Assembly: GCA_963801445.1 (NCBI GenBank)
Contig: CAWDEW010000009.1
Coordinates: 836,438-900,437 of the forward strand
Direction of reading: 5' to 3'
DNA from: an uncultured Chloroflexia bacterium
Lineage (GTDB): Bacteria > Chloroflexota > Limnocylindria > Limnocylindrales > CSP1-4
DNA: 64,000 bases
In this document: positions 6,242 to 34,049 of the stretch, in pieces
How the letters are laid out: every line of letters begins with the position of its first letter
How positions within the stretch are numbered: position 1 is the first letter of the stretch
Made by a program: the position numbers and the translations under genes
The notes under the pieces: model-generated
What the model saw: only the letters and a program-made list of their open reading frames with translations
What the model was told of the DNA's origin: nothing
Database searches by the model: none

Positions 6242-6332
6242 CGACGCATCATCGCGCGGCTCCCCGGGCCTGTCGACCGGAGGGAGCGCCGCCCGCCCCA
6301 CGCGTCGACGGCGGTCCGGCTACGATCGACGT

Positions 6333-7646
6333 GTGAGCACGCCCAGCGGACCTCGGCCGGCCGACCTTGCCGAGAGCCTCGCGAACCTTCGCCTCGAGCA
6401 GGACGCGATCGTCCTGTACGACCGGCTCTCGGGCATCGAGCGCGATCCCCGCCGGGCCGACATGTTCCGGGCGATCGCCCAGAACGAGCGACGGCATGCG
6501 GCCGTGTGGGCGGCGCGGCTGGAGGCGCTGGGAGCGACGGTGCCGCCGGCGGGCCGGGCGCGCATGCGCATCCGGGCGATCGTCGCGCTGGCCCGGGTGT
6601 TCGGGACCCGGGCCGTGGCCGACCTGGTCCAGGCGCTCGAGGGCGACGAGGAGCGGATCTACCAGGGACGCCCGCGCTCGGCCGAGGCGGACACGATCGC
6701 CGCCGACGAGCGGGTCCACCTCGAAGCCTGGGAGCGGCTCAAGGAGGGCACGCCACCGGCACCCCACGAGATCGAGTCGTCGCTGCCGCCCGCCGCCGCG
6801 CCGCAGGAGCCCGTGTCGGGCGCCGCCGCGGCGGACGCAGGCGCCGCCGCGGCTGGGGCGTCCCGGGGTGGCGGGCTTGGCCTGCACGAGGCGACCCGGG
6901 TGGACGAGGAGCGGCGCGCCCGACGGGTGACCGGCGCCGGCGAGATCACCCGGGCCGAGCGCTGGCATCGCGGCGGGGCCGGCACGCTCCGGGCGGTCGT
7001 CTTCGGCGCCTCCGACGGGCTGGTCAGCAACCTGTCGCTGGTCATGGGGGTGGCCGGCGCGAACGCCCAGCCATCGTTCATCCTCCTGTCGGGCATCGCC
7101 GGCCTCCTCGCCGGCGCGTTCAGCATGGCCGCCGGCGAGTACATCTCGGTCCAGTCGCAACGAGAGGTACTCCAGCGCCAGATCGCGCTAGAACGCGCCG
7201 AGCTCGAGGCGATCCCGGAGGAGGAGAAGGCCGAGCTGGTCGCCATCTACCAGTCCAAGGGGCTGCCCGAGGCGGACGCCCGCCGCGTGGCGGACCACAT
7301 CTTCGAGGACCCCGAGACGGCCCTCGAGACCATGGTCCGCGAAGAGCTGGGCCTCGACCCTGACGAGCTCGGGTCTCCCTGGAAGGCGGCCGGCGGATCG
7401 TTCGCGGCCTTCTGCCTTGGCGCGGTGATCCCCGTCATCCCCTACCTGTTCGGCGGGGGCACGACCATCCTGGTGCTGAGCTTCGTGGTGAGCCTGATGG
7501 CGCTGTTCGTGGTGGGAGCCCTCGTCAGCCTCCTGACCGGCCGCAGCCTGCTCTTCTCGGGCGCGCGCCAGGTGGGGCTCGGCGCGCTGGCGTCCATCGT
7601 CACCTTCCTGGTCGGGCGCGTCATCGGCGTCGCGACCGGCGGGTAG
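6333..7646 (+). CDS. mbfA: Membrane-bound ferritin-like protein: N-terminal ferritin/erythrin-like domain fused to a C-terminal VIT1/CCC1 iron-transporter domain (MbfA-like)
   Basis: The GTG start is in frame. The N-terminal half looks ferritin-like (ERRHAAVWAARLEALG ... ADERVHLEAWERL). The C-terminal half has VIT1 motifs (FGASDGLVSNLSLVMGVAGA ... MAAGEYISVQSQRE) and TM helices. Confidence 0.8.
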   Translation: MSTPSGPRPADLAESLANLRLEQDAIVLYDRLSGIERDPRRADMFRAIAQNERRHAAVWAARLEALGATVPPAGRARMRIRAIVALARVFGTRAVADLVQALEGDEERIYQGRPRSAEADTIAADERVHLEAWERLKEGTPPAPHEIESSLPPAAAPQEPVSGAAAADAGAAAAGASRGGGLGLHEATRVDEERRARRVTGAGEITRAERWHRGGAGTLRAVVFGASDGLVSNLSLVMGVAGANAQPSFILLSGIAGLLAGAFSMAAGEYISVQSQREVLQRQIALERAELEAIPEEEKAELVAIYQSKGLPEADARRVADHIFEDPETALETMVREELGLDPDELGSPWKAAGGSFAAFCLGAVIPVIPYLFGGGTTILVLSFVVSLMALFVVGALVSLLTGRSLLFSGARQVGLGALASIVTFLVGRVIGVATGG

Positions 7647-7771
7647 GGGAGCGGGCAACGGCGCAGGCCGGCAGCCCCGCGGACCGGCTCCGGGCGGAGG
7701 GGCTCGATCCCGGCAGCTGGAGCAACGGTCCCGGCGACGTCTACGCCGCCCATGTCCACGGCTACGACAAG

Positions 7772-7981
7772 GTGCTCGCCTGCGTGGCCGGAAGCATCAC
7801 CTTCGGCCTCCCCGGGCAGGGCGATCGGGTCACGCTGCAGGTGGGCGACCGCCTCGACCTGCCGGCGGGCACGACGCACGACGCGGTCGTCGGGTCGCGC
7901 GGGGTCAGCTGTCTCGAGGCGCACCTTCCCGCGGGGCAGCTCGCGCCTTCGACCCGGCACCGACCGGCAGGGACCTGGTAG
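7772..7981 (+). CDS. Cupin domain protein (N-terminus uncertain)
   Basis: The track ORF begins at GTG 7772. The same frame is open upstream and encodes cupin motif 1 (GSWSNGPGDVYAAHVHGYDKV) with no ATG/GTG/TTG. The true start may therefore be non-canonical or further upstream. Confidence 0.45.
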   Translation: MLACVAGSITFGLPGQGDRVTLQVGDRLDLPAGTTHDAVVGSRGVSCLEAHLPAGQLAPSTRHRPAGTW

Positions 7982-8078
7982 GGCGCCCGCCGGAACGAAA
8001 GGAGCGACCCTCGGGGAAGCCCCGGGGGTCGTCGTGTAGGCTGTCGATCAGCCCCGGAGATGCCGGGGCGGCAGACTG

Positions 8079-8282
8079 TCAGCGCAGTCCGAAACGTGCC
8101 CAGAAGGGCAGCTCGTCGCGCGGATCGGCCTGAGGCTTCTCATCGGTGCCACTCAGCAGGATGCTGACGAAGGACAAGAGCGCCAGGAGGCCGAGCCCGG
8201 TCACGAGTAGCATCGTGCGGTCCCTCCACCTGCTTGGGTCGACTCGACGAATATCGAGTACGTATGCATAGTAGCCTAACAA
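8079..8282 (-). CDS. Small hypothetical membrane protein
   Basis: The 67-aa ORF has one predicted TM helix (LLVTGLGLLALLSFVSILL). It lies in an AT-rich spacer divergent from lrp. Support is weak. Confidence 0.25.
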   Translation of the reverse strand: MLGYYAYVLDIRRVDPSRWRDRTMLLVTGLGLLALLSFVSILLSGTDEKPQADPRDELPFWARFGLR

Positions 8283-8325
8283 AGTGCGGTAGTCAACGCT
8301 ACATTGCCTAACATAGTGGGATCAG

Positions 8326-8832
8326 ATGGGCGTAGATCCGAAGATCAGCGAAGTCGATGCCAGGATTCTCGAGGCGCTCCAGGTCGACGGGCGCCGTTCG
8401 TATGCCGAGATCGGCGCCGACGTGGGCATGAGCGGGCCCTCCGCCCATGAGCGGGTCAAGAAGCTCGAGTCGCGGGGGATCATCCGCGGCTACATGGCCT
8501 CCGTCGACCCCACGAAGGTGGGCCTGGGCGTCACCGCGTTCATGTGGGTCACGCAGGCACCCGGCACGATCGCCAACGACCTCGTGCCGGACTTCGCTGC
8601 GATCTCCGAGGTGGAGGCCTGCCACCGGATCGCGGGCGAGGGGGACTACCTGCTCAAGATCCGGGCGGCCGACACGCAGGACCTGGAGCGGGTCGTCCGG
8701 AAGGTCCAGGGCACGACCAACGTCTACCGGACCGAGACGGACATCGTCTTCTCGACGCCGTTCGAGCGCCGGCCGCTCCCCATCCGGGCGCACGATCCGG
8801 GCAGGAAGCCCGAGCCGGTCGAGGAGTCCTAG
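8326..8832 (+). CDS. lrp: Lrp/AsnC family transcriptional regulator
   Basis: It has an N-terminal HTH (ILEALQVDGRRSYAEIGADVGMSGPSAHERVKKLE) and a C-terminal RAM domain. An AT-rich promoter region lies upstream. Confidence 0.9.
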   Translation: MGVDPKISEVDARILEALQVDGRRSYAEIGADVGMSGPSAHERVKKLESRGIIRGYMASVDPTKVGLGVTAFMWVTQAPGTIANDLVPDFAAISEVEACHRIAGEGDYLLKIRAADTQDLERVVRKVQGTTNVYRTETDIVFSTPFERRPLPIRAHDPGRKPEPVEES

Positions 8833-9035
8833 GCGCCCGCCCGGCCGGGGGCCCCGGATTCGGCGGGAGCCGGCTCGAGCTCGCCCGACCCGGACGACCC
8901 GCCGGCTGGCGCGGGGTCCATCCAGTCGTCGGGGAGCGGCTCGACCTCGGCGAGCTCACCGGTCGCCATCCAGACGAGCGCGGCGATCCCGACCGCGACG
9001 AGGATGGCGAGCCAGACGAGGAACTCGAGGTTCAC
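8829..9035 (-). CDS. Small hypothetical membrane protein (GTG start)
   Basis: The 68-aa product has one TM helix (FLVWLAILVAVGIAALVW) and an acidic Gly/Ser-rich tail. It sits between lrp and lgt. Confidence 0.25.
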   Translation of the reverse strand: MNLEFLVWLAILVAVGIAALVWMATGELAEVEPLPDDWMDPAPAGGSSGSGELEPAPAESGAPGRAGA

Positions 9036-18723: not shown

Positions 18724-18927
18724 GCGGCGTCCCGGTGCCCGGGCGCACCACGAACGAGCGTCGGGGGGCCGCGACGGCCAGCTTTCTGCGCGAGATGGCC
18801 GGCCGCGGGCGCGACGAGGGCTGGCGCCCACCGGGTTCGTGCCGGAAAATGCAGCGAACATGCGCGAGGGCCCCCGGGGCCCGAGGGAGGGAGGCGGCCC
18901 GGTCCGGTGCCGCCTGAAGGGAGGATC

Positions 18928-21900
18928 ATGTCCAGGAAGCTCGTCGCTGTTCTGGGAGCCTTGGCGCTCCTGCTGGCAGTGCTGCCGTCCGTCGCGACCG
19001 CCCAGGGTCCGACCCGGTTCCAGCGGCTCTCGGTGGCCGGCTTCGACAGCCAGCGCCTCAAGGACCTGATCGCGGCTCGCGCCCAGACGACCGTGATCGT
19101 CCAGCTGGCGGCCGCGCCCGTGGCGAACTCCCAGGCCGCGGCACTCGCGACCGGGCGGAAGCTCACGAGCACCGAGAAGTCGCGGGTCCGCGCGACCGTC
19201 AAGTCGTCGCAGGACCAGTTGATCCCGACGCTCCGGGGGATGGGGGCAAGGCCCCTCGCCCAGTACCAGGACGCGTACGACGGGATCCGCATCCGCGTGG
19301 CCGCGTCCCGGATCGCCGAGATCGCCGCGCTCCCCGGCGTCGTCGCCGTGCATCCGGTGACGGTGTTCCAGCGCGACAACCTGGTCGGCGTGCCCTACAT
19401 CGGCGGCAGCCAGGCGTGGACCGACTCCGGGCTCACGGGCCAGGGCGTCAAGATCGCCGACATCGACACCGGCATCGACTTCTACCACGCGAACTTCGGT
19501 GGGTCGGGCCAGGTCCCCGACTTCGCCTACGGCGCCGCCCACAGCACGACGGTCCCCGCGTTCAACGCGGACGGGACCACCCAGGCCTTCCCGAGCGCGA
19601 AGGTGGCCGGCGGATACGACTTCGTGGGCGACGCCTACGACGCCAACCTCCCCTCGTCCAACCCCAACTCGGTCCCGAAGCCCGACCCGAACCCTCTCGA
19701 CTGCGCCGCCAGCCTCGGTGGTGGACACGGCTCCCACACGGCCGGCACGGCCGCGGGTGAGGGTGTCCTCGCCGACGGCTCCACCTACGCCGGCCCCTAC
19801 ACCGCGAGCGCTCTCGCGGCCAACAGCTGGAAGATCGGCCCCGGCGTGGCTCCCAAGGCGACCATCTACGCCTATCGCGTCTTCGGCTGCACCGGCTCCA
19901 CGAACGTCGTCGTCGATGCCATCGAGATGGCCATGAAGGACGGCGTCGACGTGATCAACATGTCGCTCGGCTCCCCGTTCGGGCCCCCGGACTCGCCTGA
20001 CGCCGTCGCCGCCAACAACGCGGCGCTGGCCGGCATCACGGTCGTGGCATCGGCGGGCAACGAAGGCCCCAACGCCTACATCGTCGGATCGCCCTCCACC
20101 GCGGCCCGCGCGCTCTCCGTCGCGGCGCTCGATCCGATCTCGACCTTCCCCGGCGCCCTCGTCACCCTGACGGGCGGCCCGGCGCTGACCGGCATCGACG
20201 CCAACGGCGCCTCCCTCGCTACGGCGATCACGGGGCCGCTCAAGGTCCTGCAGGATTCGCCGGGCGTCATCTCGCTCGGCTGCGCTGACAGCGACTACGC
20301 GTCCGTCGCTCCCGGTGACATCGTGGTCGCCCTCCGCGGCGTCTGCGCCCGGGTGGACCGCGCGACGTTCGGCCAGGCCCACGGCGCCGCGGCCGTGATC
20401 ATGCTCAACAATTCCTCGGACCTGCCGCCCTTCGAGGGCACGATCCCCGGCGTGACGATCCCGTTCATCGGGATCGCGGATGCCGGCGGGGCAGGCGCCG
20501 CCCTGCTGGCCGCGGACGGAACATCGACCACGATCTCGGCCGGCGGGACGCTGGCCAACACCGGCTACCAGATGCTGGCGACGTTCAGCTCCGGCGGTCC
20601 GGGCAGCGCCAGCAGCGCCATCAAGCCCGAGATCACGGCCCCCGGCGTCAGCACGCTCTCCACGCTGGCCGGTGGCGGCACGGAGGGCGAGCGGCTCTCC
20701 GGCACCTCCATGGCCGCCCCGTTCACGACCGGCGCAGCCGCGCTCGTGAAGCAGGCGCACCCGACCTGGACGCCGGCCCAGATCAAGGGCGCGCTGATCA
20801 GCACCGCCGACAACACCGCGGCCCACATCCTTGGCTACAACGTCAGGACCGCCGGTGCCGGCGTCGTCCAGGTCCAGAAGGCGACGACCACCGCCGCGAT
20901 GGCCTGGACCAAGGACGGCCTCGACACGCTCTCGTTCGGCTATGACCCCTCCGGATCGAACGTCGTCGATTCGAAGGACCTCACGATCACGAACTCGAGC
21001 AGGAAGGCGATCTCCTACACCTTCAGCTGGACGACGCCGGCCCTGGGGGCCGTGCTCAAGGCCAGCCCCTCCAAGATCACCGTTCCGGCGCGCTCGTCGC
21101 GGACCGTGAACGTCAAGCTCACCCTCTCGACGGCGGCCGTCGCCGCCCTGCCCAGCGCGGACAGCAGCAACTTCGGCTCGCTGGTCACGATCCGCGGGAC
21201 CTTCACGGCCACGCCGACGCGGTCGGGCAGCGGGCTCTACCCGCTGGCCGTCCCGTACCTGGTCGTGCCGCGCGGCCTGTCCGACATCTCGGCATCCGAT
21301 CCGCACGTGACGGGCAGCTCCGGCAGCGTCGTGGCGCTCTCCTCGCAGGTCGTCAACAAGGGCGTGCATGCCGGCGCCGCCGACGTGTACGCCTGGGGCC
21401 TGCACGACCGCAAGGGCGACGCCGGGCCGACCAACGACATCCGCGACGTCGGCGTCCAGTCGCTCGACGGCGCGCTCGCCGGGGTGCCCGGCGACCAGCT
21501 TCTCGTGTTCGCGATGAACACGTACGGCCGCTGGTCGAACGCCTCGGACACCGACCTCGAGATCCCGATCGACAAGAACGGGGACGGGACCCCCGACTTC
21601 TGGGTGATCGGGTTCGACTACGGCTACTTCATGACCGGGACGCCCGACGGACGCTTTGCCTCGTTCACCACCGATGCTGGCTTCAACATCATCGACATCT
21701 GGATCCCGACCGCCCCGATGAATGGGTCGACGGCCGAGCTCCCCACCCTCGCCACCGATCTCGGGCTCACGCCCGCGAGCGGTCTCTTCAAGTACGGCGC
21801 CCAGGCCTTCTCCCTCCAGGGCTACACGCCCGACTTGGTCTCCGGCTGGGCCTCCTTCGACGCGTTCGCTCCGGCGTTCTCGCAGGGCCAGTTCATCCCG

Positions 21901-22071
21901 CTTGACCCCCGCCACAACGCCACGCTCAGCCTGTCGGTCGACGGGTCGAAGCTGGCCGCGCAGCCCGGTCTCGGCTGGATGGTCGTGGCGCTCGACGACG
22001 CCAACGGCGCCGCCCAGGCGGACGAGCTGCAGTTCGAAGACCACTCCGATCACCACGATGGCCATCACTGA
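18928..22071 (+). CDS. Secreted subtilisin-like serine protease (peptidase S8) with PA-domain insert and His-rich C-terminus
   Basis: It begins with RBS gaagggagga and a signal peptide (MSRKLVAVLGALALLLAVLPSVATAQG). The catalytic triad motifs are present (DTGID, HGSHTAG, GTSMAAPF). The C-terminus is HSDHHDGHH. Confidence 0.9.
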   Translation: MSRKLVAVLGALALLLAVLPSVATAQGPTRFQRLSVAGFDSQRLKDLIAARAQTTVIVQLAAAPVANSQAAALATGRKLTSTEKSRVRATVKSSQDQLIPTLRGMGARPLAQYQDAYDGIRIRVAASRIAEIAALPGVVAVHPVTVFQRDNLVGVPYIGGSQAWTDSGLTGQGVKIADIDTGIDFYHANFGGSGQVPDFAYGAAHSTTVPAFNADGTTQAFPSAKVAGGYDFVGDAYDANLPSSNPNSVPKPDPNPLDCAASLGGGHGSHTAGTAAGEGVLADGSTYAGPYTASALAANSWKIGPGVAPKATIYAYRVFGCTGSTNVVVDAIEMAMKDGVDVINMSLGSPFGPPDSPDAVAANNAALAGITVVASAGNEGPNAYIVGSPSTAARALSVAALDPISTFPGALVTLTGGPALTGIDANGASLATAITGPLKVLQDSPGVISLGCADSDYASVAPGDIVVALRGVCARVDRATFGQAHGAAAVIMLNNSSDLPPFEGTIPGVTIPFIGIADAGGAGAALLAADGTSTTISAGGTLANTGYQMLATFSSGGPGSASSAIKPEITAPGVSTLSTLAGGGTEGERLSGTSMAAPFTTGAAALVKQAHPTWTPAQIKGALISTADNTAAHILGYNVRTAGAGVVQVQKATTTAAMAWTKDGLDTLSFGYDPSGSNVVDSKDLTITNSSRKAISYTFSWTTPALGAVLKASPSKITVPARSSRTVNVKLTLSTAAVAALPSADSSNFGSLVTIRGTFTATPTRSGSGLYPLAVPYLVVPRGLSDISASDPHVTGSSGSVVALSSQVVNKGVHAGAADVYAWGLHDRKGDAGPTNDIRDVGVQSLDGALAGVPGDQLLVFAMNTYGRWSNASDTDLEIPIDKNGDGTPDFWVIGFDYGYFMTGTPDGRFASFTTDAGFNIIDIWIPTAPMNGSTAELPTLATDLGLTPASGLFKYGAQAFSLQGYTPDLVSGWASFDAFAPAFSQGQFIPLDPRHNATLSLSVDGSKLAAQPGLGWMVVALDDANGAAQADELQFEDHSDHHDGHH

Positions 22072-22106
22072 CCGATAGCCGGGACCGGCTTCGCCGGCCC
22101 GATCAG

Positions 22107-22143
22107 CGCGAAGGCCCGCCGGCAAACCCGGCGGGCCTTCGCG
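22107..22143 (+). terminator. Strong GC-rich hairpin (16-bp perfect stem, 5-nt loop) downstream of the S8 protease gene
   Basis: The sequence is cgcgaaggcccgccgg caaac ccggcgggccttcgcg. It is not followed by a U-tract. Confidence 0.55.
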
Positions 22144-22234
22144 TGTCTGCGCCCCGGCCCCGGGTAACCCGGACCGCGGCTCGCCCGGTCGGGCGCGCCC
22201 CGAAGGGGCGGCCGGGCCGGTAGACTCGCCCGCG

Positions 22235-24049
22235 ATGACCCATCGGTACACGATCCTCCACGGCGGGACGGTCCTGACGCTCGCCGGGGCGCCGCCATCC
22301 GACGCCCGCGCCCGCCGGGCCGGCGACCCGACCGTGCCCGACGCAGCCGGTCGGCGGGCCACGGCCATCTGCATCGCGGAGGATCGGATCCTCGCCCTGG
22401 GCGATGATGCCTCCGTCCTGGCCCTCGCCGGGCCCGACAGCACGCTCGTGGACCTCCGCGGCCGGTGCGTCGTGCCCGGGCTCATCGATCCCCACGCGCA
22501 CCCGTACGCCGAGGGGCTGGCGGCCGCCGTGCCGTCGCTGGTCGCGGCGCCGGACCTGCGGACCCTCCTGCGCTCGGTCCCCGGGCTCGGCGAGCACCTG
22601 GGTCCCGACGCCTGGCTGGTTGCGCGCTACGACGACGGCTCCTGGCCGGAGAGCCGGTCGCCGACCCGCGATGACCTCGACCGCGTCGTTCCCGACCGGC
22701 CGGTCCTGCTTGGCCATCGATCGGGTCACGCCGTGGTGGCGAACAGCCTGGCCCTTGTCCTGGCCGGGATCGGCGTGGACGGTCCCGCCGACGCTGCGAG
22801 CGGGGTCACCGTCGTCCGGGACCAGCACGGCGAGCCGACCGGCCTCATCGAGGGCCCGGGTGCCTGGGCGCTCGTGGCGGCCGGGATGCCGGCGCGGCGG
22901 CCAGCGGAACGTGCCGCAGCCCTCCGCCTGGCCGCCGGGCGCCTGGCCCGGGATGGGGTCACCTGGGTTGCCGACGCCGACGCGGGGTCCTCCGATGGCC
23001 TCGAGCACGAGCTGGCGGCCTATGGCGCGGCCGTCGAGGCCGGGACCTTCCCGATCGGGCTGGGGCTGCTGCCCGGGCTGGCCGGCCTGGCGCCCGCCCC
23101 CGAGTCTGACCCGCCCGCCCCCCCGGAGGTCGCGGCGCTCCTGCCCGCTGCCGTCCGGGACCTGGTCCTGCTGGATCGCGCCAAGCTCTACGCCGACGGG
23201 GCGCTCACGACTCGCACGGCCTGGCTCACGGCCGGGTATGCGGATGCCCCGGGCGCGGGGCGGCCCGTCCACGGGCCGGGTGCGCTCGCCGAGCGCGTGC
23301 GCCGGGCGACCGACCGCGGCTGGCTCCTCGCCACCCATGCCATCGGGGACGCCGCGATCGGGGCGGTCCTCGACGCCTACGAGGCCGCCGCCGGGGCTGC
23401 CGGACGGCCGGTCGGCCACCGCATCGACCACGCGATGCTCCTCACGCCAGCGCTCGTGGCCCGCCTGGCCGCGGGTCGCATCGGGGTCGTGGTCCAGCCG
23501 GAGTTCACCCGCTGGGCCGGCGACATGTACGTCCGGCGCCTGGACGCGTCCCGGGCTGCCCTCCTGCTGCCCTATGCGACGCTGCTCGAGGCAGGCGTCC
23601 CGCTGGCGTTCTCCAGCGACCGGCCCATCGTGGGCGGAGCCCCGCTCGACGGCATCCGGGCAGCCCTCCGCCATGCGGGCCCGTCGGGGCGACGGCTGGC
23701 CGAGGGCCCGACCGTCTCCCCCGCCGAGGCGCTCCATGCGTGGACGAGCGGGGCTGCCGGCGCGGCCGGGATCGGCGCGGAGGCGGGGCGCCTCGAGCCA
23801 GGGACCCGGGCGGACCTCGCGATCCTGACGGTCGATCCCACCGCGCTCCCGCCCGGGGCCTGGGCAGCCGGTGAGGATGGGGTCGCGGTCGTCGCGACGC
23901 TCGTGGCCGGGCGGGTGGTGGCCGGCGACCTGGCCGCCCTCGAACCGCTGGATCGTGGTCCGACTGATGTCGCGGCCGGCGCGCTCGTCGTGGAGCCCAG
24001 CGTCGGCGGGCGGGCGCGACCGCGGGCCCGGGGAGCGAGGCGCCCGTGA
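22235..24049 (+). CDS. Amidohydrolase family protein (metal-dependent hydrolase, amidohydrolase_3-like)
   Basis: Metal-ligand motifs are present (PGLIDPHAHP ... HAIGD ... AFSSD). The product is 604 aa. Confidence 0.8.
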   Translation: MTHRYTILHGGTVLTLAGAPPSDARARRAGDPTVPDAAGRRATAICIAEDRILALGDDASVLALAGPDSTLVDLRGRCVVPGLIDPHAHPYAEGLAAAVPSLVAAPDLRTLLRSVPGLGEHLGPDAWLVARYDDGSWPESRSPTRDDLDRVVPDRPVLLGHRSGHAVVANSLALVLAGIGVDGPADAASGVTVVRDQHGEPTGLIEGPGAWALVAAGMPARRPAERAAALRLAAGRLARDGVTWVADADAGSSDGLEHELAAYGAAVEAGTFPIGLGLLPGLAGLAPAPESDPPAPPEVAALLPAAVRDLVLLDRAKLYADGALTTRTAWLTAGYADAPGAGRPVHGPGALAERVRRATDRGWLLATHAIGDAAIGAVLDAYEAAAGAAGRPVGHRIDHAMLLTPALVARLAAGRIGVVVQPEFTRWAGDMYVRRLDASRAALLLPYATLLEAGVPLAFSSDRPIVGGAPLDGIRAALRHAGPSGRRLAEGPTVSPAEALHAWTSGAAGAAGIGAEAGRLEPGTRADLAILTVDPTALPPGAWAAGEDGVAVVATLVAGRVVAGDLAALEPLDRGPTDVAAGALVVEPSVGGRARPRARGARRP

Positions 24050-24936
24050 CCGCGGCGGTCCTCACGTTCGCGTTCGACCCCATCGTCCGGCTGGCCGGCC
24101 TGGAGGTCCGGGCCGAGACCCTCGGGATCGCCGCGGCGCTGCTCATCGGCCTCGTCTGGGTGGCGTTCATCACGGGCCGGACTCCGGGCGGCGACTGGAT
24201 CGGCGACACGGCGGCGGACGAGGAGGCCGGCCTGGCCGGACCCTGGCACCTGCGCCGCGACGACCTGCTGTTCATCGCCGTCGGGGCCGTGCCGGGAGCC
24301 GTCCTCGGCGGGCGGATCGGGTACGGCCTCCTCCACGCGGACTACTACGGGATGGACCTCCGCCGGCTCCTGGACCCGGGATCCGGGAGCGCCGAGCTCA
24401 CCCTGGCCGTCGTCGGCGGGACGCTGACCGGGATCTACGTCGCGGCGCTCCTCGATGCGCCCGTCGGTCGCTGGCTGCACGCGGCGATCCGCCCGCTCCT
24501 GATCGCCCTCGCGCTGGGCAAGGCGGCCGGGGTCCTGGGTGGGTCGGGGCAGGGCGCGCTCGTCCCGGCCGGGACGTCGTATGCGACGGCCTATGCGGGC
24601 CCCGGCCCCTGGGGGAGCGCGGCCGCGGACCTTCCGGCGATCCCCTCGCAGCTCGGCGAGGCGGCGCTGACCCTGCTCGTGCTGGCCCTCGTCGGCTGGC
24701 TCGGGTGGCGCACCCCGCTCCGGCGCCCGGACGGACGCCTCTTCGGGGTGGGCCTCGGTCTGTGGGCCCTCGGTCGCGGCCTCGTCGCGACGACGTGGCG
24801 GGACGTGTCCGTCCTTGGCCCCTTTTCCGCCGAGCAGCTCATCGCGCTGCCCGTGGGCCTGCTCGCGCTCGGCCTCGCCACCCTCGCCTGGCTCGCCCGG
24901 CGGCGCGGGCGGCGACCCGCCATCCCCGGCGCCTGA
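24046..24936 (+). CDS. Divergent Lgt-family membrane protein (paralog lacking the canonical Lgt signature)
   Basis: It is collinear with Lgt (DDLLFIAVGAVPGAVLGGRIGYGLLHADYYG; LDPGSGS..GG; C-terminal IPSQLGEAALTLLVLALVGWL resembling HPTQLYE..L.L). The G-R-x-G-N-F-x-N-x-E signature is replaced by LGKAAGVLGGSG. Its start overlaps the previous stop (GTGA). Confidence 0.55.
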   Translation: MTAAVLTFAFDPIVRLAGLEVRAETLGIAAALLIGLVWVAFITGRTPGGDWIGDTAADEEAGLAGPWHLRRDDLLFIAVGAVPGAVLGGRIGYGLLHADYYGMDLRRLLDPGSGSAELTLAVVGGTLTGIYVAALLDAPVGRWLHAAIRPLLIALALGKAAGVLGGSGQGALVPAGTSYATAYAGPGPWGSAAADLPAIPSQLGEAALTLLVLALVGWLGWRTPLRRPDGRLFGVGLGLWALGRGLVATTWRDVSVLGPFSAEQLIALPVGLLALGLATLAWLARRRGRRPAIPGA

Positions 24937-24952
24937 CCGACGACCGCGGACC

Positions 24953-25924
24953 ATGCCCGATCCCGACCGCCCCGCGCGCCCGTCGACCTCCCCCGACCCC
25001 CTCGGGGGCGGCATCATCGGCCGGCGCCCGGCCGCCGTCCTCCTCGGGCTGGTGGCCCTGGTCTGGGGCGTCCACTGGGCCGTGATCCGGGTCGGCCTCG
25101 GGGTCATGTCGCCGTTCGCCTACGGGACGCTCCGGGCGGCCGGCGGGTTCGCCACCCTGGCGGTCCTCCTGGCCATGCGGCGCGCGTTGCGCCTCCCTGC
25201 CCGGGCCGACCTGCCGATCATCCTCTCGATCGGCGTCGGCCAGATGGCCGGCACGATCGTGATCGCGAACCTGGCCCTCCAGGTGGTGCCCGCCGGGAGG
25301 TCGTCGGTCCTGATGTACACCATGCCGCTCTGGGTTGCCGCGATCCAGACGCTCGTGCTGCGCGTCCCGATCCGGCGGGGCGAGGTCGTGGCGCTTGGGC
25401 TGGGCCTCGCGGGCGTGATCGCGCTGCTCAACCCGATCGCGATCGACTGGACGTCGTCGGGCCAGCTGCTGGGCAGTGTCGGCCTGCTGGTCGCGGGCGT
25501 GATCTGGGCAGTCACCACGATCCACGTCCGCCGCCACCGCTGGATCGGGACGCCCCTCTCGCTCCAGCCCTGGCAGGTGCTCAGCGCGTTCCTGACCCTG
25601 GCCGTGATGACGCTCCTGCTGGAACCCGCTCCGCAGGTGCGCTGGGAGCCGCTGACCATCGGGGTGCTGCTCTACAGCGGCCCGCTGGCGACCGCGTTCG
25701 CGTACTGGGCGAGCCAGACCGTGACCCGGGCGATCGGCCCCCTCGCGACCAGCACGGCGCTGCTGGCCGTGCCCCTCGTCGGCCTCCTCTCGGGCGCGCT
25801 GCTCCTGGGCGAGCGGATCACCCTGATCGACCTCGCCGGGTTCGCCCTCGTGCTCTCCGGCGTCGGCATCCTGGCCCGGGCGGGTGAGACGCGCGACGTC
25901 ACCGTCCCGGACGCGACGGCCTGA
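24953..25924 (+). CDS. DMT-superfamily (EamA-like) transporter
   Basis: It has ten predicted TM helices and two EamA-like repeats. Confidence 0.8.
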   Translation: MPDPDRPARPSTSPDPLGGGIIGRRPAAVLLGLVALVWGVHWAVIRVGLGVMSPFAYGTLRAAGGFATLAVLLAMRRALRLPARADLPIILSIGVGQMAGTIVIANLALQVVPAGRSSVLMYTMPLWVAAIQTLVLRVPIRRGEVVALGLGLAGVIALLNPIAIDWTSSGQLLGSVGLLVAGVIWAVTTIHVRRHRWIGTPLSLQPWQVLSAFLTLAVMTLLLEPAPQVRWEPLTIGVLLYSGPLATAFAYWASQTVTRAIGPLATSTALLAVPLVGLLSGALLLGERITLIDLAGFALVLSGVGILARAGETRDVTVPDATA

Positions 25925-28414: not shown

Positions 28415-29266
28415 CTAGGGCCGCACCAGGTCGTCGTAGGCCTCCGGGCGGCGATCCCGGAAGAACTGCCAGGTCTGGCGAACCTCCGTGATCAGGTCCA
28501 GGTCGAGGTCCCGGATGAGGAGCTCCTCGGCGTAGGGGCTGGCGACTCCGCCCACGACCTGGCCGCGCGGGTCGCAGAAGTAGCTCTGGCCGTAGAAGTC
28601 GTCGTCGCCGATCTCGGCCTCGATCCCCACCCGGTTGATCGTCCCGACGTAGTAGCCGTTGGCCACCGCGTGGCTGGGCTGCTCGATCCGCCAGAGGTAC
28701 TCGGACAGGCCGCGGCTGGTCGCCGACGGGATGAGCACGATCTCGGCGCCGTTGAGGCCGAGCGCCCGGGCGCCCTCCGGGAAGTGGCGGTCGTAGCAGA
28801 TGTAGACGCCGACCTTGCCGACAGCCGTCTGGAAGACGGGGTAGCCCAGGTTCCCGGGGCGGAAGTAGAACTTCTCCCAGAAGCCCTTCACGTGCGGGAT
28901 GTGCGTCTTGCGGTACTTGCCGAGATAGCTCCCGTCGCTGTCGATGACGGCGGCGGTGTTGTAGTAGATGCCGGACGCGGTCGTGTCCTCCTCGTACATC
29001 GGCACGACCAGGACCATCCCGGTCTGCTTCGCGAGGTCCTGCATCCGCTTCGTCGTCGGGCCGTCCGGGATCAGCTCGGTGTAGGAGTAGTACCGGGAAT
29101 CCTGGACCTGGCAGAAGTAGGGCCCGTAGAACAGCTCCTGGAAGAGCATGAGCTGGGCGCCCTGCTTGGCGGCGTCGTGGGCGAACCGCTCGTGCTTCTG
29201 GATCATGGATTCCTTGTCGCCGGTCCAGGTGGCCTGGACGAGCGCGCCTCGGACAATTCGCGGCAT
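28415..29266 (-). CDS. Nitrilase-superfamily N-carbamoyl amidohydrolase (beta-ureidopropionase / N-carbamoyl-amino-acid hydrolase type)
   Basis: The carbon-nitrogen hydrolase catalytic E-K-C context is present (LMLFQELF ... GKYRKTHIP ... VYICYDRHFPE). An ATG follows the RBS ggagga. Confidence 0.8.
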   Translation of the reverse strand: MPRIVRGALVQATWTGDKESMIQKHERFAHDAAKQGAQLMLFQELFYGPYFCQVQDSRYYSYTELIPDGPTTKRMQDLAKQTGMVLVVPMYEEDTTASGIYYNTAAVIDSDGSYLGKYRKTHIPHVKGFWEKFYFRPGNLGYPVFQTAVGKVGVYICYDRHFPEGARALGLNGAEIVLIPSATSRGLSEYLWRIEQPSHAVANGYYVGTINRVGIEAEIGDDDFYGQSYFCDPRGQVVGGVASPYAEELLIRDLDLDLITEVRQTWQFFRDRRPEAYDDLVRP

Positions 29267-29476
29267 CGGATCTCCTCCGGTGGGGTCGCAGGAACGACGG
29301 CGTAACCGGGCCACGGGGCTCGGTCGATGGATTGCGCCGGATGCTACACCTCCGCGCGCTCCGTGCGCGGCACGGAACGGGGGCGCGGCGCGTCAGCGCC
29401 GGGGTTGCCCGATCGGGCACCAGGTCTGCCCGATCCCCTGCTGACGGGGCTCCGACGCCGCGCTACCGTCGGCCCC

Positions 29477-31651
29477 ATGGGCAGGTCGCTCGCCGCGATG
29501 CGGCACCAGGCGGCCCCGGCGAGCCCGTCTGCCGCAACGCCGTCGGCCCCCTCGCGGCGGGCCGCCGGCGTCGACGAGCACGCTGTCTCCGAGATCGCCC
29601 GTCACGGGATGCCACCCGCGATCGAGGGCCGTCGCGGCGCGCCCGGCTCCGAGCCGCGCATCCTGCTCTCCCTCCAGGACCGGGCCGGGAACCGGGCGGT
29701 CAGCGCCATCGTCGCCCGCGCGCTCCAGCGCAGCGAGATCCCCTACACGGATCGCGGGGAGACGCTCTACAACCAGGACCCGTCGTTCAACGCCTCGGTC
29801 ACGCCGGGCACGGCCGGAGCCATGCACTACGGCGGCGGGACCCGGCACTTCGAGATGACCCGCTCCGACACCGAGGTGGTCGCGACCGTCCGCATCCTGT
29901 TCGTGAACCAGGACCGCGACACGCGCCAGACCTTGCCCGACGGAACGAGCAACCCGAACTATCTCGGGCACCGCGGCGCCGAGACGGAGATCCCCGCGTC
30001 CGACGAGCGGCGCGGACGCGCCAGCGACATCGCCCGCCACCAGACCGATCGCTGGAACGGCCGGATCCGGCTCCGGGGAGTGGCGCACCCGCGCTGGTAC
30101 CAGATCGGCGGCCACGACGAGGACGTCGACCTGCCGGTCCGGTTCGTGTCGCAGGCGGTGTTCGGGATGGGGGAGTCGCACCACACGACGGTCCGCCTCT
30201 ACCCGGCGTCAGTGGTCGCCAGCCAGGCTGCCGGGAACCCGATCGACGCAGGCAACTACTACCTGAACACGAGCCGGTATGGCGCCGACGCGGCCGCGAT
30301 CTACGCGCACGAGTACGGCCACCTCCTCGGGTTGCAGGATGAGTACGACCAGAGCAACTTCCAGATGCACGTCCTGCTCCACCAGGTCTCCCCGCGGCTC
30401 GGCGGCGGGCGCGGCGCCGCCCTCGACCGGGCGACCGTCGAGCGGATGGTCCTGGCGGCGCTGACGCGTCCCCTCTTCTTCCGCTTCGCGGCAGCCAAGG
30501 AGGAGCTCTCCGCCTCGTTCATGGCCGGTCGTGCGCCGCTGGAAGCCGGCCTCGGCGCGGCGCTTCGGGCGGCCGCCGCCGATCCGGCCGTCCGCACCGC
30601 GGCGACGGCCAGGCTGGAGGCGCATGCCGGCTCACGGCTCGCCGGCCGCCTCCCGGGCATCGTCGACTTCGAGGCGGGCGAGAACTTCTCGAACCTCGCG
30701 CTGGCACGGGGAGCGGTCGCAACCGAGTTTGCGCCCGACGCGCTCGGCGACCTCGTGGCGGGAGCCTACTTCCAGGCGCTCCTCGCGCCCCACGACCAAC
30801 CGGTCGACGTCGGCGGCGGCGGGAGCGGGCGGATGTCGGTGAACATCCACGGCAGCGCCGGCTCCGGCTCCGGTACCGGGATCTGGGGCGCTGCTGGCAG
30901 CGGACCCCTGGCGGGGAATGCCTCGGCCCTCGCCCAGCAGGTGGTCGGTGACAGCTCCGCCGGCCCGGTGCCGCCGGTCCGGCCGTCCTCGTCGCTGGTC
31001 TCCCAGGTGGCGGGAATCCCGGCGACATGGCGGACGGCGGCGGGAGGTCTCGCTGCGGCAATCACGCCGGCCGGACTGTCCGCCGCCATGTCGGCCGCGA
31101 TCACGGCTCGCGGGGCCGTCTCGGGCGGCGACGGCCCGATCGGCAGCGTCGTCGAGGCGTACCATCGTGCCCTCGCGCTCGTCGGATCGTCGGCCCGGGC
31201 TGCGGCCCGGTCGGAGGTGCGTCGTTTCGTGGGTGCCCAGATCGCCCCGGCCCTTTCGGCGAACGTCTCGGCGCTCCAGGGCCAGGTCTCTGCCGACGTC
31301 ACCCAGGTGATGGCGACCCCGGCGCGGACGGTCGCAGCCGCCGCACCGCCCGACCCGGACCTGCGGGCCGTGGTCACCGCGATGCAGGCCCGGCTGGCGT
31401 CGGCGACGCCGGCCGGCGCGGACGCCACCAATCGCAACGCTCCGGCGGCCAACCCGGGCAGCCCGGCCAACAACCCGACCGGGGCCGCGGTCCCCGCCCA
31501 GGAGGTCACCTACTCGAACACCGGGATGATGAGCGACAACTCGGGCGAGATCCGCACCGACCAGTTCGCCGACTTCGCGAACTTGTTCAACGACCCGTCA
31601 AACGGCCTGCACCGGTCGAACGAGGGCCAGTTCCGGGCGGTGGTTCGATGA
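29477..31651 (+). CDS. Large hypothetical protein: N-terminal LQ..AGNRAV motif (DUF4157-like effector/pre-toxin motif), central HExxH zinc-metallopeptidase motif, long Ala/Gly/Ser-rich C-terminal region
   Basis: The N-terminal region reads ILLSLQDRAGNRAVSAIVARALQ. The metal-binding motif is AAIYAHEYGHLLGLQDEYD. The C-terminal 350 aa are low-complexity Ala/Gly/Ser-rich sequence, ending in a short conserved-looking tail (TYSNTGMMSDNSGEIRTDQFADFANLF). Confidence 0.6.
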   Translation: MGRSLAAMRHQAAPASPSAATPSAPSRRAAGVDEHAVSEIARHGMPPAIEGRRGAPGSEPRILLSLQDRAGNRAVSAIVARALQRSEIPYTDRGETLYNQDPSFNASVTPGTAGAMHYGGGTRHFEMTRSDTEVVATVRILFVNQDRDTRQTLPDGTSNPNYLGHRGAETEIPASDERRGRASDIARHQTDRWNGRIRLRGVAHPRWYQIGGHDEDVDLPVRFVSQAVFGMGESHHTTVRLYPASVVASQAAGNPIDAGNYYLNTSRYGADAAAIYAHEYGHLLGLQDEYDQSNFQMHVLLHQVSPRLGGGRGAALDRATVERMVLAALTRPLFFRFAAAKEELSASFMAGRAPLEAGLGAALRAAAADPAVRTAATARLEAHAGSRLAGRLPGIVDFEAGENFSNLALARGAVATEFAPDALGDLVAGAYFQALLAPHDQPVDVGGGGSGRMSVNIHGSAGSGSGTGIWGAAGSGPLAGNASALAQQVVGDSSAGPVPPVRPSSSLVSQVAGIPATWRTAAGGLAAAITPAGLSAAMSAAITARGAVSGGDGPIGSVVEAYHRALALVGSSARAAARSEVRRFVGAQIAPALSANVSALQGQVSADVTQVMATPARTVAAAAPPDPDLRAVVTAMQARLASATPAGADATNRNAPAANPGSPANNPTGAAVPAQEVTYSNTGMMSDNSGEIRTDQFADFANLFNDPSNGLHRSNEGQFRAVVR

Positions 31652-32451
31652 GCGGGCTGCCCGCGGCGCCAGGGGAGCCCCGACCGCGCGTGGCATGGGA
31701 GCGCCGGGGGGCCGGCGGGCTGCGCCTGGGTGAGCGGCTGGCGCTCTACTCGGACAGGAGCGCCTGGCTGTGGGTGCAGGCCGCGGCGGATCCGGGGCGG
31801 GCAGACCGGGTGGGAAGCTTCCGCGCCGCCGTGGATGGCCGCCGGATCCAGGAGGCCGAGGCACTATGGGCCGCCCTCGCGGCGGCGCCCGACGCCGCGG
31901 CATCGGTGCACGGCCCGGAAGCGACGGTCGCCGGCCCGGACGGTTCACTCCTCTCCCTGTTCGCCGGGCAGCCCGGACCCGGCGCCGCGCTGCTGGCGCT
32001 CCTCGACTCGTTGACAGCCGAGGCGGTCCGCAATCCGGTCGCGGCCGCCCGCTTCGTCCTGGCGCGCGTCCCGGACACGGGGGTGGGCGGGTTCGCCCTG
32101 ATCGTCGAAGGCGAAGGCGAGCAGGCCGTCCAATTCGTCCTCGATCCCGGCGCCTTCGTCCTCTCCCTCTCCGAGGCGAACGGCGAGGGCGAGCGCCAGG
32201 GCGTGGGGCCGCTGCCGATCGGCCTGATCGGACCGGATGGCGACCTCGTCGACGGCCTCCATGGCACGGCCCGCCTGGCGCCGGGGAGCCGGGCTGCCGC
32301 CGTGCTCCCGGTCCGGGCGGAGGCGCCCCGGGATGCCCGGGTGGAGGTTGGCGGCCGGATCGCGCTGGTCGGCCCGTGGCCGGCTGCGCCGATGGCCGCC
32401 GACGCCTTCGAAGCCCGGACCGCGGTCCTCCCGGCGGGCCAACCCAGCTGA
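31648..32451 (+). CDS. Hypothetical protein translationally coupled (ATGA overlap) to the HExxH protein
   Basis: The 267-aa ORF has no recognisable domain. Its codon usage is coherent with its neighbours. Confidence 0.5.
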   Translation: MSGLPAAPGEPRPRVAWERRGAGGLRLGERLALYSDRSAWLWVQAAADPGRADRVGSFRAAVDGRRIQEAEALWAALAAAPDAAASVHGPEATVAGPDGSLLSLFAGQPGPGAALLALLDSLTAEAVRNPVAAARFVLARVPDTGVGGFALIVEGEGEQAVQFVLDPGAFVLSLSEANGEGERQGVGPLPIGLIGPDGDLVDGLHGTARLAPGSRAAAVLPVRAEAPRDARVEVGGRIALVGPWPAAPMAADAFEARTAVLPAGQPS

Positions 32452-32714: not shown

Positions 32715-34049
32715 ATGAGCGTCAAGGCCCCGAACCGACTCTCCAGCGAGGAGATCGTCCGCCTCTCCCGCCGGTACACGTTCTTCCCCTGGGCCGCCCA
32801 GGGCGCCGTCGCGCCCGTGGCGATCGACCGGGCGGAGGGCGTCTGGCTCTATACGCCCGAGGGGCGCCGGATCCTCGACTTCAACAGCCAGCTGATGTCG
32901 GTCAACATCGGCCACGGCGACCGCCGGGTGATCGACGCGATCACGGAGCAGGCGAAGCGGTTGCAGTACGTCCAGCCGGGCTTCGTCACCGAGATCCGGG
33001 CCCAGCTCGGCCAGAAGCTCGCCGAGCTGCTCCCCGGCGACATCGAGAAGGTCTTCTTCACGCTCGGTGGGGCCGAGGCCAACGAGAACGCGATCAAGCT
33101 CGCCCGCCAGGCGACGGGTCGGCACAAGATCCTGGCCCGCTACCGGAGCTACCACGGTGCCACGGCCGGGGTCATGACCCTGACCGGCGACCCGCGCCGC
33201 TGGGCGAACGAGCCCGGGATCCCGGGTGTCGTCCGCTTCCCGGACACGCACCGCTGGGGCGAGAAGGAGCCTCGTTCGGCGGCCGAGGCGCTGCAGGGCC
33301 TCGAGGACGTGGTGATGTACGAGGGGCCGTCCACGATCGCGGCTCTCATCATCGAGACCGTCGTGGGCACCAACGGGATCCTCATCCCGCCCGACGGCTA
33401 CCTCCAGGGCGTCCGCGAGATCTGCGACCGGCACGGCATCGTGCTGATCGCCGACGAGGTGATGGCCGGCTTCGGGAGGACCGGCGAGTGGTTCGCCGTG
33501 AACAACTGGAACGTCGTGCCCGACATCATCACGCTGGCCAAGGGCCTCACCTCCAGCTACCTGCCCCTCGGGGCCGTCGGGATGCGGCCGCACATCGCCG
33601 CGGCCTTCGAGAGCAAGGTCTACTACGGCGGCCTGACCTACAACAGCCACCCTGTCGGGCTCGCCGCGGCCCTCGCGACCATCGGCGTCTACGAGGAGGA
33701 CGGCCTGATCGAGCGGGCGCGCACGATGGGCGCGCTGCTCCGCGGTCACCACGAGGCCCTGGCGGCGAAGCACCCGTCGGTCGGGACCCACCGCAACATC
33801 GGCATGTTCGGGATGATCGAGCTCGTGCGGAGCCGCGACCCGTGGGTGCCCATGGCGGGCTACAACGGCTCCTCGGACGAGATGAAGGCCATCCAGAAGT
33901 CGCTCCGCGAGCAGGGCCTCTACACGATGTACCAGTGGAACGGGATCCACACCAACCCGCCGCTGACCATCACCGAGGACGAGATGGCCCAGGGCTTCGC
34001 CATGATCGACCGCGCGCTCGAGATCGCGGACGAGGCGGTGACCAGCTGA
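32715..34049 (+). CDS. Class-III (omega) aminotransferase, PLP-dependent (beta-alanine/taurine-pyruvate aminotransferase-like)
   Basis: It has class-III motifs (GGAEANENAIKLAR, IADEVMAGFGRTG, TLAKGLTSSYLPLGAV). Confidence 0.9.
   Translation: MSVKAPNRLSSEEIVRLSRRYTFFPWAAQGAVAPVAIDRAEGVWLYTPEGRRILDFNSQLMSVNIGHGDRRVIDAITEQAKRLQYVQPGFVTEIRAQLGQKLAELLPGDIEKVFFTLGGAEANENAIKLARQATGRHKILARYRSYHGATAGVMTLTGDPRRWANEPGIPGVVRFPDTHRWGEKEPRSAAEALQGLEDVVMYEGPSTIAALIIETVVGTNGILIPPDGYLQGVREICDRHGIVLIADEVMAGFGRTGEWFAVNNWNVVPDIITLAKGLTSSYLPLGAVGMRPHIAAAFESKVYYGGLTYNSHPVGLAAALATIGVYEEDGLIERARTMGALLRGHHEALAAKHPSVGTHRNIGMFGMIELVRSRDPWVPMAGYNGSSDEMKAIQKSLREQGLYTMYQWNGIHTNPPLTITEDEMAQGFAMIDRALEIADEAVTS

What the first reader, a model, noticed from the sequence alone, without database searches (positions are those of the whole stretch)
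29477..32451. Two-gene module encoding a DUF4157-like HExxH protein plus an unknown partner, inserted inside a pyrimidine-catabolism cluster
The 724-aa protein opens with ILLSLQDRAGNRAVSAIVARAL. The LQ..AGNRAV motif is characteristic of the DUF4157 N-terminal domain, described on polymorphic-toxin and contractile-injection-system cargo proteins. About 220 aa downstream lies a zincin-like HEYGHLLGLQDEYD site. A ~350-aa Ala/Gly/Ser-rich low-complexity region follows, then a short conserved-looking C-terminal tail. The protein has no signal peptide. The next gene (267 aa, no recognisable domain) starts on the stop codon (ATGA), which suggests a dedicated partner such as an immunity, chaperone or substrate protein. 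The pair is transcribed divergently from the hydantoinase operon and interrupts an otherwise coherent metabolic cluster, so it looks like an accessory insertion. No injection-system structural genes are in the window. The module is therefore either an orphan toxin/antitoxin-like pair or a new metalloprotease system.
Basis: partly seen in the sequence, partly recalled or inferred. Interest (0 to 1): 0.75.

Follow-up and report, generated by a model that had tools for sequence, protein, structure and literature searches.

The report
Orphan contractile-injection metalloprotease cargo pair
The two genes are a real, conserved pair: a zinc protease of an undescribed family whose N-terminal tag also occurs on proteins linked to phage-tail-like injection machines, followed by a dedicated partner protein, and this copy sits alone among metabolic genes, far from any such machine.

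Summary
Both ORFs exist as described: gene A at 29477-31651 (724 aa) and gene B at 31648-32451 (267 aa), joined by an ATGA overlap. A is not a DUF4157 protein. Pfam and NCBIfam give no DUF4157 hit, and a profile-profile comparison aligns only about 33 N-terminal residues with real DUF4157 proteins.

A belongs to an unannotated family: 270 clusters among 1.84 billion, found in Actinomycetota and Chloroflexota, conserved over its whole length. It has four parts:
- a disordered N-terminus;
- a leader helix carrying LQRxAGNxAV;
- a metzincin-like catalytic domain (HExxHxxGxxDEY, closest to snapalysin/M6);

B follows A, translationally coupled, in 64 of the 66 related loci whose downstream DNA is available.

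In 11 of 72 loci the pair lies inside a contractile injection system (CIS) cluster with sheath, tube, Pvc16 and Pvc15-like ATPase genes, at the payload position. Neighbouring DUF4157 proteins and other putative effectors carry the same leader. The leader also marks many unrelated proteins in metagenomes, on contigs that often carry CIS genes.

Best reading: an orphan CIS cargo protease with a cognate inhibitor or chaperone. Function is inferred, not shown.

The parts
29477..31651 (+). Gene A: 724-aa leader-bearing metzincin-like metalloprotease of an unannotated family. The ORF could start further upstream, up to 29327.
   Evidence: Full-length homologues at 33-58% identity. Alignment A1 is conserved end to end. 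AF2 model has pLDDT 79.6 and pTM 0.73.
29477..29650 (+). aa 1-58: variable, disordered, hydrophilic N-terminal region
   Evidence: pLDDT below 50. Length and sequence vary between homologues.
29651..29722 (+). aa 59-82: leader helix. The LQDRAGNRAV motif is at 29672-29701; the family consensus is LxLQRxAGNRAV.
   Evidence: This is the only stretch that aligns with DUF4157 proteins (hhalign E 2e-5). The same motif occurs on other effector-like proteins.
29726..30391 (+). aa 84-305: beta-rich catalytic domain. It starts with the invariant QR and ETL residues and contains HEYGHLLGLQDEY (30308-30346).
30401..31411 (+). aa 309-645: conserved all-helical domain of unknown function.
   Evidence: Helices with pLDDT mostly above 85. 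Conserved columns include Y431, W518 and M636. No structural match.
31499..31648 (+). aa 675-724: conserved C-terminal module (QxVTY...M...RxDQF...FN)
   Evidence: Invariant Q675, T678, Y679 and M685; R693, D695, Q696, F697, F704 and N705 are conserved in at least 90% of sequences. The model gives a beta-alpha-beta unit.
31648..32451 (+). Gene B: 267-aa fast-evolving partner. Its start overlaps the stop of A (ATGA).
   Evidence: An HMM of downstream ORFs hits the ORF directly after A in 64 loci. AF2 model has pLDDT 79 and pTM 0.79: an alpha/beta N-domain plus a beta-sandwich. No family hit.
28415..29314 (-). Flank, not part of the module: CN_hydrolase gene, divergent from A
32715..34049 (+). 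Flank, not part of the module: class-III aminotransferase gene

Best explanation
Gene A encodes a cytoplasmically made zinc metalloprotease that is a cargo/effector of a contractile injection system (CIS, a phage-tail-like machine).

Inferred: its disordered N-terminus and the conserved leader helix (LxLQRxAGNxAV, then a QR-x-V element) act as a shared address or processing tag. The same tag is carried by the small DUF4157 'eCIS core' proteins and by other effector-like proteins of the same clusters. The tag most likely mediates recognition by the Pvc15-like AAA+ ATPase and/or the spike/DUF4157 adaptor, for loading into the particle.

Shown at sequence and fold level only: the body of A is a metzincin-type protease (HExxHxxGxxD, with Asp as third zinc ligand, followed by Tyr) fused to a large helical domain.

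Shown: gene B is translationally coupled to A and always travels with it.

Inferred: B most likely binds A stoichiometrically in the producer's cytoplasm, either as an inhibitor/immunity protein that keeps the protease silent or as a loading chaperone.

The window copy is an orphan module placed between divergent metabolic operons. It would be served by a CIS encoded elsewhere in the genome, if one exists.
For: 1. In 11 of 72 related loci, from both Actinomycetota and Chloroflexota, the A-B pair lies inside a CIS cluster. The cluster genes are sheath (PF04984/PF17482), gp19 tube (PF06841), Pvc16_N (PF14065), a WHD+AAA Pvc15-like ATPase and a GerE regulator.
2. In L060 the order is Pvc16, AAA, A, B with overlapping stops and starts. 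L072 has Pvc16, AAA, two unannotated ORFs (1171 and 217 aa), a small DUF4157 gene, then A and B on the same strand. This is the payload position of PVC/Afp-type loci.
3. CIS-embedded copies are scattered among orphan copies in the A tree.
4. Within the fetched loci the leader motif occurs on all A homologues and on 15 other ORFs, 13 of them in CIS-containing loci. These include PF13699 proteins (E 1e-16 to 1e-33) and 333-1250-aa proteins without DUF4157.
5. hhalign aligns only the leader between A and the DUF4157 proteins.
The tagged proteins are diverse: eCIS_core, Ntox16, Het-C, annexin, OmpA, PG-binding, M15 and Hcp-like, and most have no Pfam domain. Nine of these short contigs carry sheath, tube, Pvc15 or Pvc16 genes.
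7. The N-terminus is disordered with no Sec/Tat signal. This fits what is published for eCIS cargo: a disordered N-terminal domain is required for AlgoCIS loading while DUF4157 is dispensable (bioRxiv 10.64898/2026.05.27.728243).
8. B is present after A in 64 of 66 loci with downstream sequence, with start/stop overlap or abutment.
Against: - 61 of 72 loci, and the window itself, show no CIS gene within the fetched flanks. Whether those genomes encode a CIS elsewhere could not be checked.
- Nothing shows loading, secretion, proteolysis or toxicity.
- The function of the leader is inferred from co-occurrence only. Published work on PVC/Afp signals reports no conserved sequence (PMC11297309).
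Confidence: 0.6

Rival explanations
1. A is an accessory enzyme of the CIS rather than cargo. It could be a maturation or leader-processing protease, or a factor that helps release particles or kill the producer cell, with B as its regulator.
For: It sits in the same operon as Pvc16 and Pvc15 in L060 and L072. It is a protease. Conserved QR elements recur in leaders and in the acidic tails of DUF4157 proteins, which could be cleavage sites. Streptomyces CIS act inside the producer (PMC11126660).
Against: A carries the same leader as the putative cargo. It is absent from most CIS-like contexts and usually lies far from any CIS. DUF4157 is already the proposed processing peptidase (PMC3482391).
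Confidence: 0.15
2. A-B is an autonomous protease/inhibitor, toxin-antitoxin-like or defence module that works without any injection system. Its presence in some CIS clusters is hitch-hiking within variable islands.
For: 61 of 72 loci are orphan, with a different context each time. The two genes are tightly coupled.
Against: No PADLOC, Pfam or NCBIfam match. The leader is shared with eCIS_core proteins. Repeated, phylogenetically scattered placement at the payload position in two phyla is hard to explain by chance. Leader-bearing metagenome contigs often carry CIS genes.
Confidence: 0.15
3. A is a divergent member of the DUF4157/PVC-metallopeptidase family.
For: Shared N-terminal motif, and both proteins have HExxH.
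Confidence: 0.03
4. A is a housekeeping peptidase functionally tied to the surrounding pyrimidine/hydantoin catabolic genes.
For: Physical position between CN_hydrolase and aminotransferase genes.
Against: None of the 72 related loci shares these neighbours; only B is conserved next to A.
Confidence: 0.01

Closest known systems
DUF4157 / eCIS_core / PVC-metallopeptidase proteins (PF13699)
   Same: Same N-terminal leader (LQRxAGNxAV followed by a QR element). Same gene clusters. Both have an HExxH site. Both are linked to contractile injection systems (PMC8213781, PMC3482391).
   Different: The catalytic domains are unrelated at profile level. DUF4157 is a ~79-aa HExxHxxQ...E domain. A has a ~220-aa HExxHxxGxxD metzincin-like domain plus a 340-aa helical domain.
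Snapalysin (MEROPS M7; PDB 1c7k, 4hx3) and immune inhibitor A (M6)
   Different: Those enzymes are Sec-secreted extracellular proteases without a leader helix, a helical domain or partner gene B. The sequence matches are below every family threshold.
eCIS payloads/EATs of PVC, Afp and AlgoCIS (Pdp1, Pnf, Afp18, Cgo1/2)
   Same: Encoded downstream of pvc15/16-like genes. Disordered N-terminal region needed for loading. No Sec signal (bioRxiv 10.64898/2026.05.27.728243; PMC11297309).
   Different: Those signals have no conserved sequence across systems. Here a sharply conserved motif is shared across two phyla and many protein families. No loading has been shown for A.
Streptomyces CIS effectors Tme / Sle1 with the small DUF4157 adaptor (PMC11126660; bioRxiv 10.1101/2025.11.06.686954)
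   Same: The Agromyces clusters have the same layout: sheath, then a large coiled-coil leader-bearing protein (1241 aa), a small DUF4157 protein and an AAA ATPase. A-B sits between the large protein and the DUF4157 gene.
   Different: A is a protease, not a tape-measure-like membrane or nuclease effector. No Streptomyces genome appeared among the 72 loci.
Protease plus co-transcribed cytoplasmic inhibitor pairs such as staphopain/staphostatin (from my own knowledge)
   Same: The protease gene is directly followed by a small beta-rich cytoplasmic protein. This is a working analogy for B.

Membership tests
DUF4157 / eCIS_core (PF13699) | Match to the PF13699 profile above its gathering score | tested here: not met
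   No hit even at E<=1. Neighbouring true members score 59-114 bits.
DUF4157 / eCIS_core (PF13699) | HExxHxxQ...E gluzincin-type signature (PMC3482391) | tested here: not met
   A has HEYGHLLGLQDEY. hhalign aligns only the leader, not the HExxH region.
Metzincin clan (MA(M)) | Extended motif HExxHxxGxx(H/D) | tested here: met
   H278, E279, H282, G285 and D288 are invariant in 32 sequences.
Metzincin clan (MA(M)) | Metzincin catalytic fold | tested here: inconclusive
Metzincin clan (MA(M)) | Conserved Met-turn after the third ligand | tested here: inconclusive
   M297 is Met in most sequences but Leu or Ala in some. Model coordinates could not be inspected.
Peptidase M6 (InhA) / M7 (snapalysin) | Family profile match above the curated cut-off | tested here: not met
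   PF05547 scores 21.1 against a cut-off of 22. TIGR03296 scores 24.7 against 110.8. Snapalysin E 0.056.
eCIS/CIS payload (effector) | Encoded within or next to a CIS operon, downstream of the Pvc15/Pvc16 homologues | tested here: inconclusive
   Met for homologues in 11 of 72 loci. Not met for the window copy, which has no CIS gene in 64 kb.
eCIS/CIS payload (effector) | Disordered hydrophilic N-terminal region without a Sec/Tat signal | tested here: met
   Residues 1-58 have pLDDT below 50 and no hydrophobic segment.
eCIS/CIS payload (effector) | Physical loading into, or ejection from, particles | not testable with these tools
   Needs particle purification and mass spectrometry.
Toxin-immunity / protease-inhibitor pair | Conserved adjacency and coupling of the two genes | tested here: met
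   B follows A in 64 of 66 loci with downstream DNA. Starts overlap or abut the stop of A.
Toxin-immunity / protease-inhibitor pair | Toxicity of A and neutralisation or binding by B | not testable with these tools
   No complex prediction or experiment was available.
Known anti-phage defence systems (PADLOC) | Match to a PADLOC model | tested here: not met
   No family for A or B at E<=1.

The most novel reading that the evidence does not exclude
The LxLQRxAGNxAV helix may be a sequence-defined cargo tag for the contractile injection systems of Actinomycetota and Chloroflexota, used for loading, spike/adaptor binding or processing. It would mark a large, mostly unannotated, polymorphic effector repertoire, and A-B would be a new metzincin effector with a dedicated inhibitor within it. 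The accessible literature says eCIS signals have no conserved sequence, so a portable consensus tag would be new. It would also allow cargo to be predicted genome-wide, including orphan modules such as this one.
Probability: 0.35. Interest if true: 0.75.

Novelty: new variant of a known kind. Interest (0 to 1): 0.55.

Why it matters
- CIS cargo in Gram-positive and Chloroflexota lineages is almost unknown, and orphan cargo genes cannot currently be recognised.
- This module suggests a sequence tag that finds such genes wherever they sit in a genome.
- It adds an undescribed protease family with a fixed partner to the effector catalogue.
- It shows that the tag usually attributed to DUF4157 proteins is a separate, portable element.
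- If the tag directs loading, it could be used to load engineered cargo into these particles.

Tried and rejected
- **Known families.** Pfam, NCBIfam and PADLOC scans of A and B gave no family. NCBIfam has no model for other leader proteins either.
- **Look-ups by exact sequence.** Exact-sequence contig look-up failed for P0001 and P0050.
- **Structure searches.** Foldseek against PDB found nothing significant for A. The afdb50 library was unavailable.
- **Signals and scars.** The promoter/terminator scan was uninformative. The repeat search found no insertion scars.
- **A-B fusion.** An apparent fusion in Pseudonocardia loci was an artefact of long stop-free frames. The A and B matches are in different frames.
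- **Literature.** Text searches for the motif found nothing.
- **Leader scans.** A DNA pattern scan replaced them.
- **Gene finder.** My GC3-based gene finder missed A and B because of their Ala/Gly-rich composition, not because they are non-coding.
Full report
**Observation.** The window is high-GC DNA (about 70-78% GC). Gene A (29477-31651, +, 724 aa) and gene B (31648-32451, +, 267 aa) are intact ORFs, and the stop of A overlaps the start of B in ATGA. A contains LQDRAGNRAV at aa 66-75 and HEYGHLLGLQDEYD from aa 278. Codon-position GC is coding-like: GC3 is 0.91 for A and 0.88 for B, slightly below the neighbours at 0.95-0.97. The flanks are metabolic: Amidohydro_1, Bac_luciferase and CN_hydrolase upstream on the minus strand, and Aminotran_3, two ABC permease genes and an NMT1-type binding protein downstream. 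No repeats or mobile-element scars bracket the pair.

**What gene A is.**
- Pfam and NCBIfam give no DUF4157 hit. They give only sub-threshold M6/M10/M43 matches at the HExxH site.
- The protein database holds at least 143 full-length homologues (630-760 aa, 33-58% identity, about 90% coverage). All are 'hypothetical' and none has a Pfam domain.
- An exhaustive profile search finds 270 clusters (121 at E<=1e-30) among 1.84 billion, all with the same architecture.
- The 32-sequence alignment is conserved over the whole length. Invariant residues are:
  - the leader (L66 and Q67 near-invariant, ...G71, N72), then Q84, R85 and E95, T96, L97;
  - H278, E279, H282, G285, D288, E289, Y290 and H302;
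  - W518 and M636;
  - a C-terminal QxVTY...M...RxDQF...FN block.
- The AlphaFold model (pLDDT 79.6, pTM 0.73) shows a disordered 1-58, a helix at 59-82 carrying the motif, a beta-rich catalytic domain at 84-305, an all-helical domain at 309-645 and a small C-terminal unit.
- A profile search of PDB sequences gives snapalysin as best match, though not significant (AHETGHVLGLPDHY).
- The helical domain matches nothing.
- A is therefore best described as a metzincin-like HExxHxxGxxD protease of a new family. It is not a member of M6, M7 or DUF4157.

**The partner.**
- A scan of one genome per species found 72 loci. They come from Actinomycetota (Nocardioides, Agromyces, Microlunatus, Angustibacter, Fodinicola, Pseudonocardia, Nakamurella, Acidimicrobiia) and Chloroflexota.
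- All-against-all clustering of flanking ORFs shows that the only conserved neighbour is the ORF immediately downstream. No other neighbour occurs in more than 11 loci.
- An HMM of these downstream ORFs hits the ORF after A in 62 loci, plus two contig-truncated cases. Six loci end before the position, and two (L014, L058) have no detectable B.
- The start of B overlaps or abuts the stop of A throughout.
- B evolves fast (22-40% identity), has no family match and has no leader.

**The link to injection systems.**
- Searching the fetched loci for the motif found it on every A homologue and on 15 other ORFs.
- Several of these are genuine PF13699 'eCIS core' proteins (E 1e-16 to 1e-33), with the motif about 25-30 aa upstream of the Pfam domain. 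Others are 333-1250-aa proteins without DUF4157.
- Thirteen of the 15 lie in loci that also encode a contractile injection system.
- In Agromyces salentinus (L022) the order is tube, tube, sheath, a 1241-aa leader protein, A, B, a small DUF4157 protein, a WHD+AAA ATPase and a GerE regulator.
- In the Chloroflexia MAG L060 the order is Pvc16_N, WHD+AAA, A, B with overlapping stops and starts. L072 has two unannotated ORFs and a small DUF4157 gene between the ATPase and A-B. This is the payload position of PVC/Afp-type operons.
- tblastn with these CIS proteins finds sheath and/or the ATPase in 11 of 72 loci and nothing in the window.
- These 11 are scattered through the A tree among orphan copies, which argues against a single hitch-hiking event.

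**The leader is a separate, portable element.**
- A profile-profile comparison of the A family with nine small DUF4157 proteins aligns only 33 columns: the motif plus the following QR-x-V. The E-value is 2e-5, and the HExxH regions do not align.
- In these contigs the motif lies near the start of ORFs whose bodies differ widely. About 11 are A-like and about 20 are DUF4157.
- Of 88 of these proteins scanned against Pfam, a few carry Ntox16, Het-C, annexin, OmpA, PG-binding, M15, DUF6782 or Hcp-like domains. Most have no Pfam domain.
- Nine of the 120 mostly 1-6-kb contigs also carry sheath, tube, Pvc15-like or Pvc16-like genes.
- Zhang et al. 2012 describe the PVC-metallopeptidase as HExxHxxQ-E and, in the section read here, do not mention this upstream motif (PMC3482391).
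- Work on PVC/Afp states that no conserved signal sequence was detected (PMC11297309).
- A 2026 preprint shows that the disordered N-terminal domain, not DUF4157, is needed for AlgoCIS loading (10.64898/2026.05.27.728243).
- In Streptomyces lividans the small DUF4157 protein binds both the spike complex and the neighbouring effector (10.1101/2025.11.06.686954).

**Interpretation.**
- Shown: the gene pair is conserved; the leader is shared with eCIS-core and other effector-like proteins; the pair sits repeatedly at the payload position of CIS clusters; A has a metzincin-type active-site motif.
- Inferred: A is cargo; the leader directs loading, adaptor binding or processing; B inhibits or chaperones A; the window copy depends on a CIS encoded elsewhere.
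- The main weakness is that 61 loci, including this one, show no CIS nearby, and whole genomes could not be inspected.
- Rivals:
  - an accessory or processing protease of the CIS;
  - a CIS-independent protease/inhibitor module;
  - DUF4157 membership (tested, not met);
  - a role in pyrimidine catabolism (contradicted by synteny).

**Verdict.** This is an orphan copy of a previously unannotated, CIS-associated metalloprotease-plus-partner module. Interest is moderate (0.55). It would be higher if the leader proves to be a true loading signal.

Noticed in passing
L008, L022, L030, L042, L043, L055, L060, L072 (small DUF4157 genes, e.g. L022:12844-13518 -): The small DUF4157 proteins next to the CIS ATPase start with a conserved MHxHDxD N-terminus. 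They end in acidic tails with repeated ...QR(E/Q)E... elements. L060:14647-15630 has about six tandem LQALPAQRQEEPEEEEE units. The recurring QR may be a processing site.
   Followed up: partly
L022:5116-8841 (-) and L043 (~5899-8865): A 1241-aa leader-bearing protein lies directly upstream of the sheath gene. It has an apolipoprotein-like coiled-coil region and hydrophobic helices, and resembles the tape-measure-like Sle1/Tme effectors described in Streptomyces.
   Followed up: partly
L037:11957-12352 (+): A second, short A-like ORF (leader plus the ETLYN block, 132 aa) lies after the full A gene in a CIS locus. It is possibly a duplicated fragment or a pseudogene.
   Followed up: no
metagenome loci L073-L192: Two leader-bearing proteins match T6SS_HCP (a tube-like fold), and four carry OmpA domains. 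The tag is therefore not restricted to enzymes.
   Followed up: no
window 18907-22071 (+): A 1054-aa ORF has an N-terminal signal-like hydrophobic segment and classic subtilase motifs (GHGSHTAGT, SGTSMAAP). It is probably a large secreted S8 protease. A Pfam scan of the C-terminal 321 aa found nothing.
   Followed up: partly
window 22000-25500: A stretch of unusually high GC (0.77-0.78, against about 0.70 around it). It covers an amidohydrolase-like ORF (22235-24049) and a membrane-protein ORF (24046-24936).
   Followed up: no
L002 (DASQFM010000184.1): The contig is labelled Candidatus Eisenbacteria, but its A and B genes group with the window and with Nocardioides. This may be a binning error or a horizontal transfer.
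   Followed up: no
L026:14622-18092 (-) and L026:20082-21992 (-): A Nanopelagicales MAG carries two more leader-bearing genes near its A-B pair. One is a 1156-aa protein with an N-terminal DUF4157-like region. No sheath or tube genes lie within 10 kb, so this looks like an effector island without the machine.
   Followed up: partly
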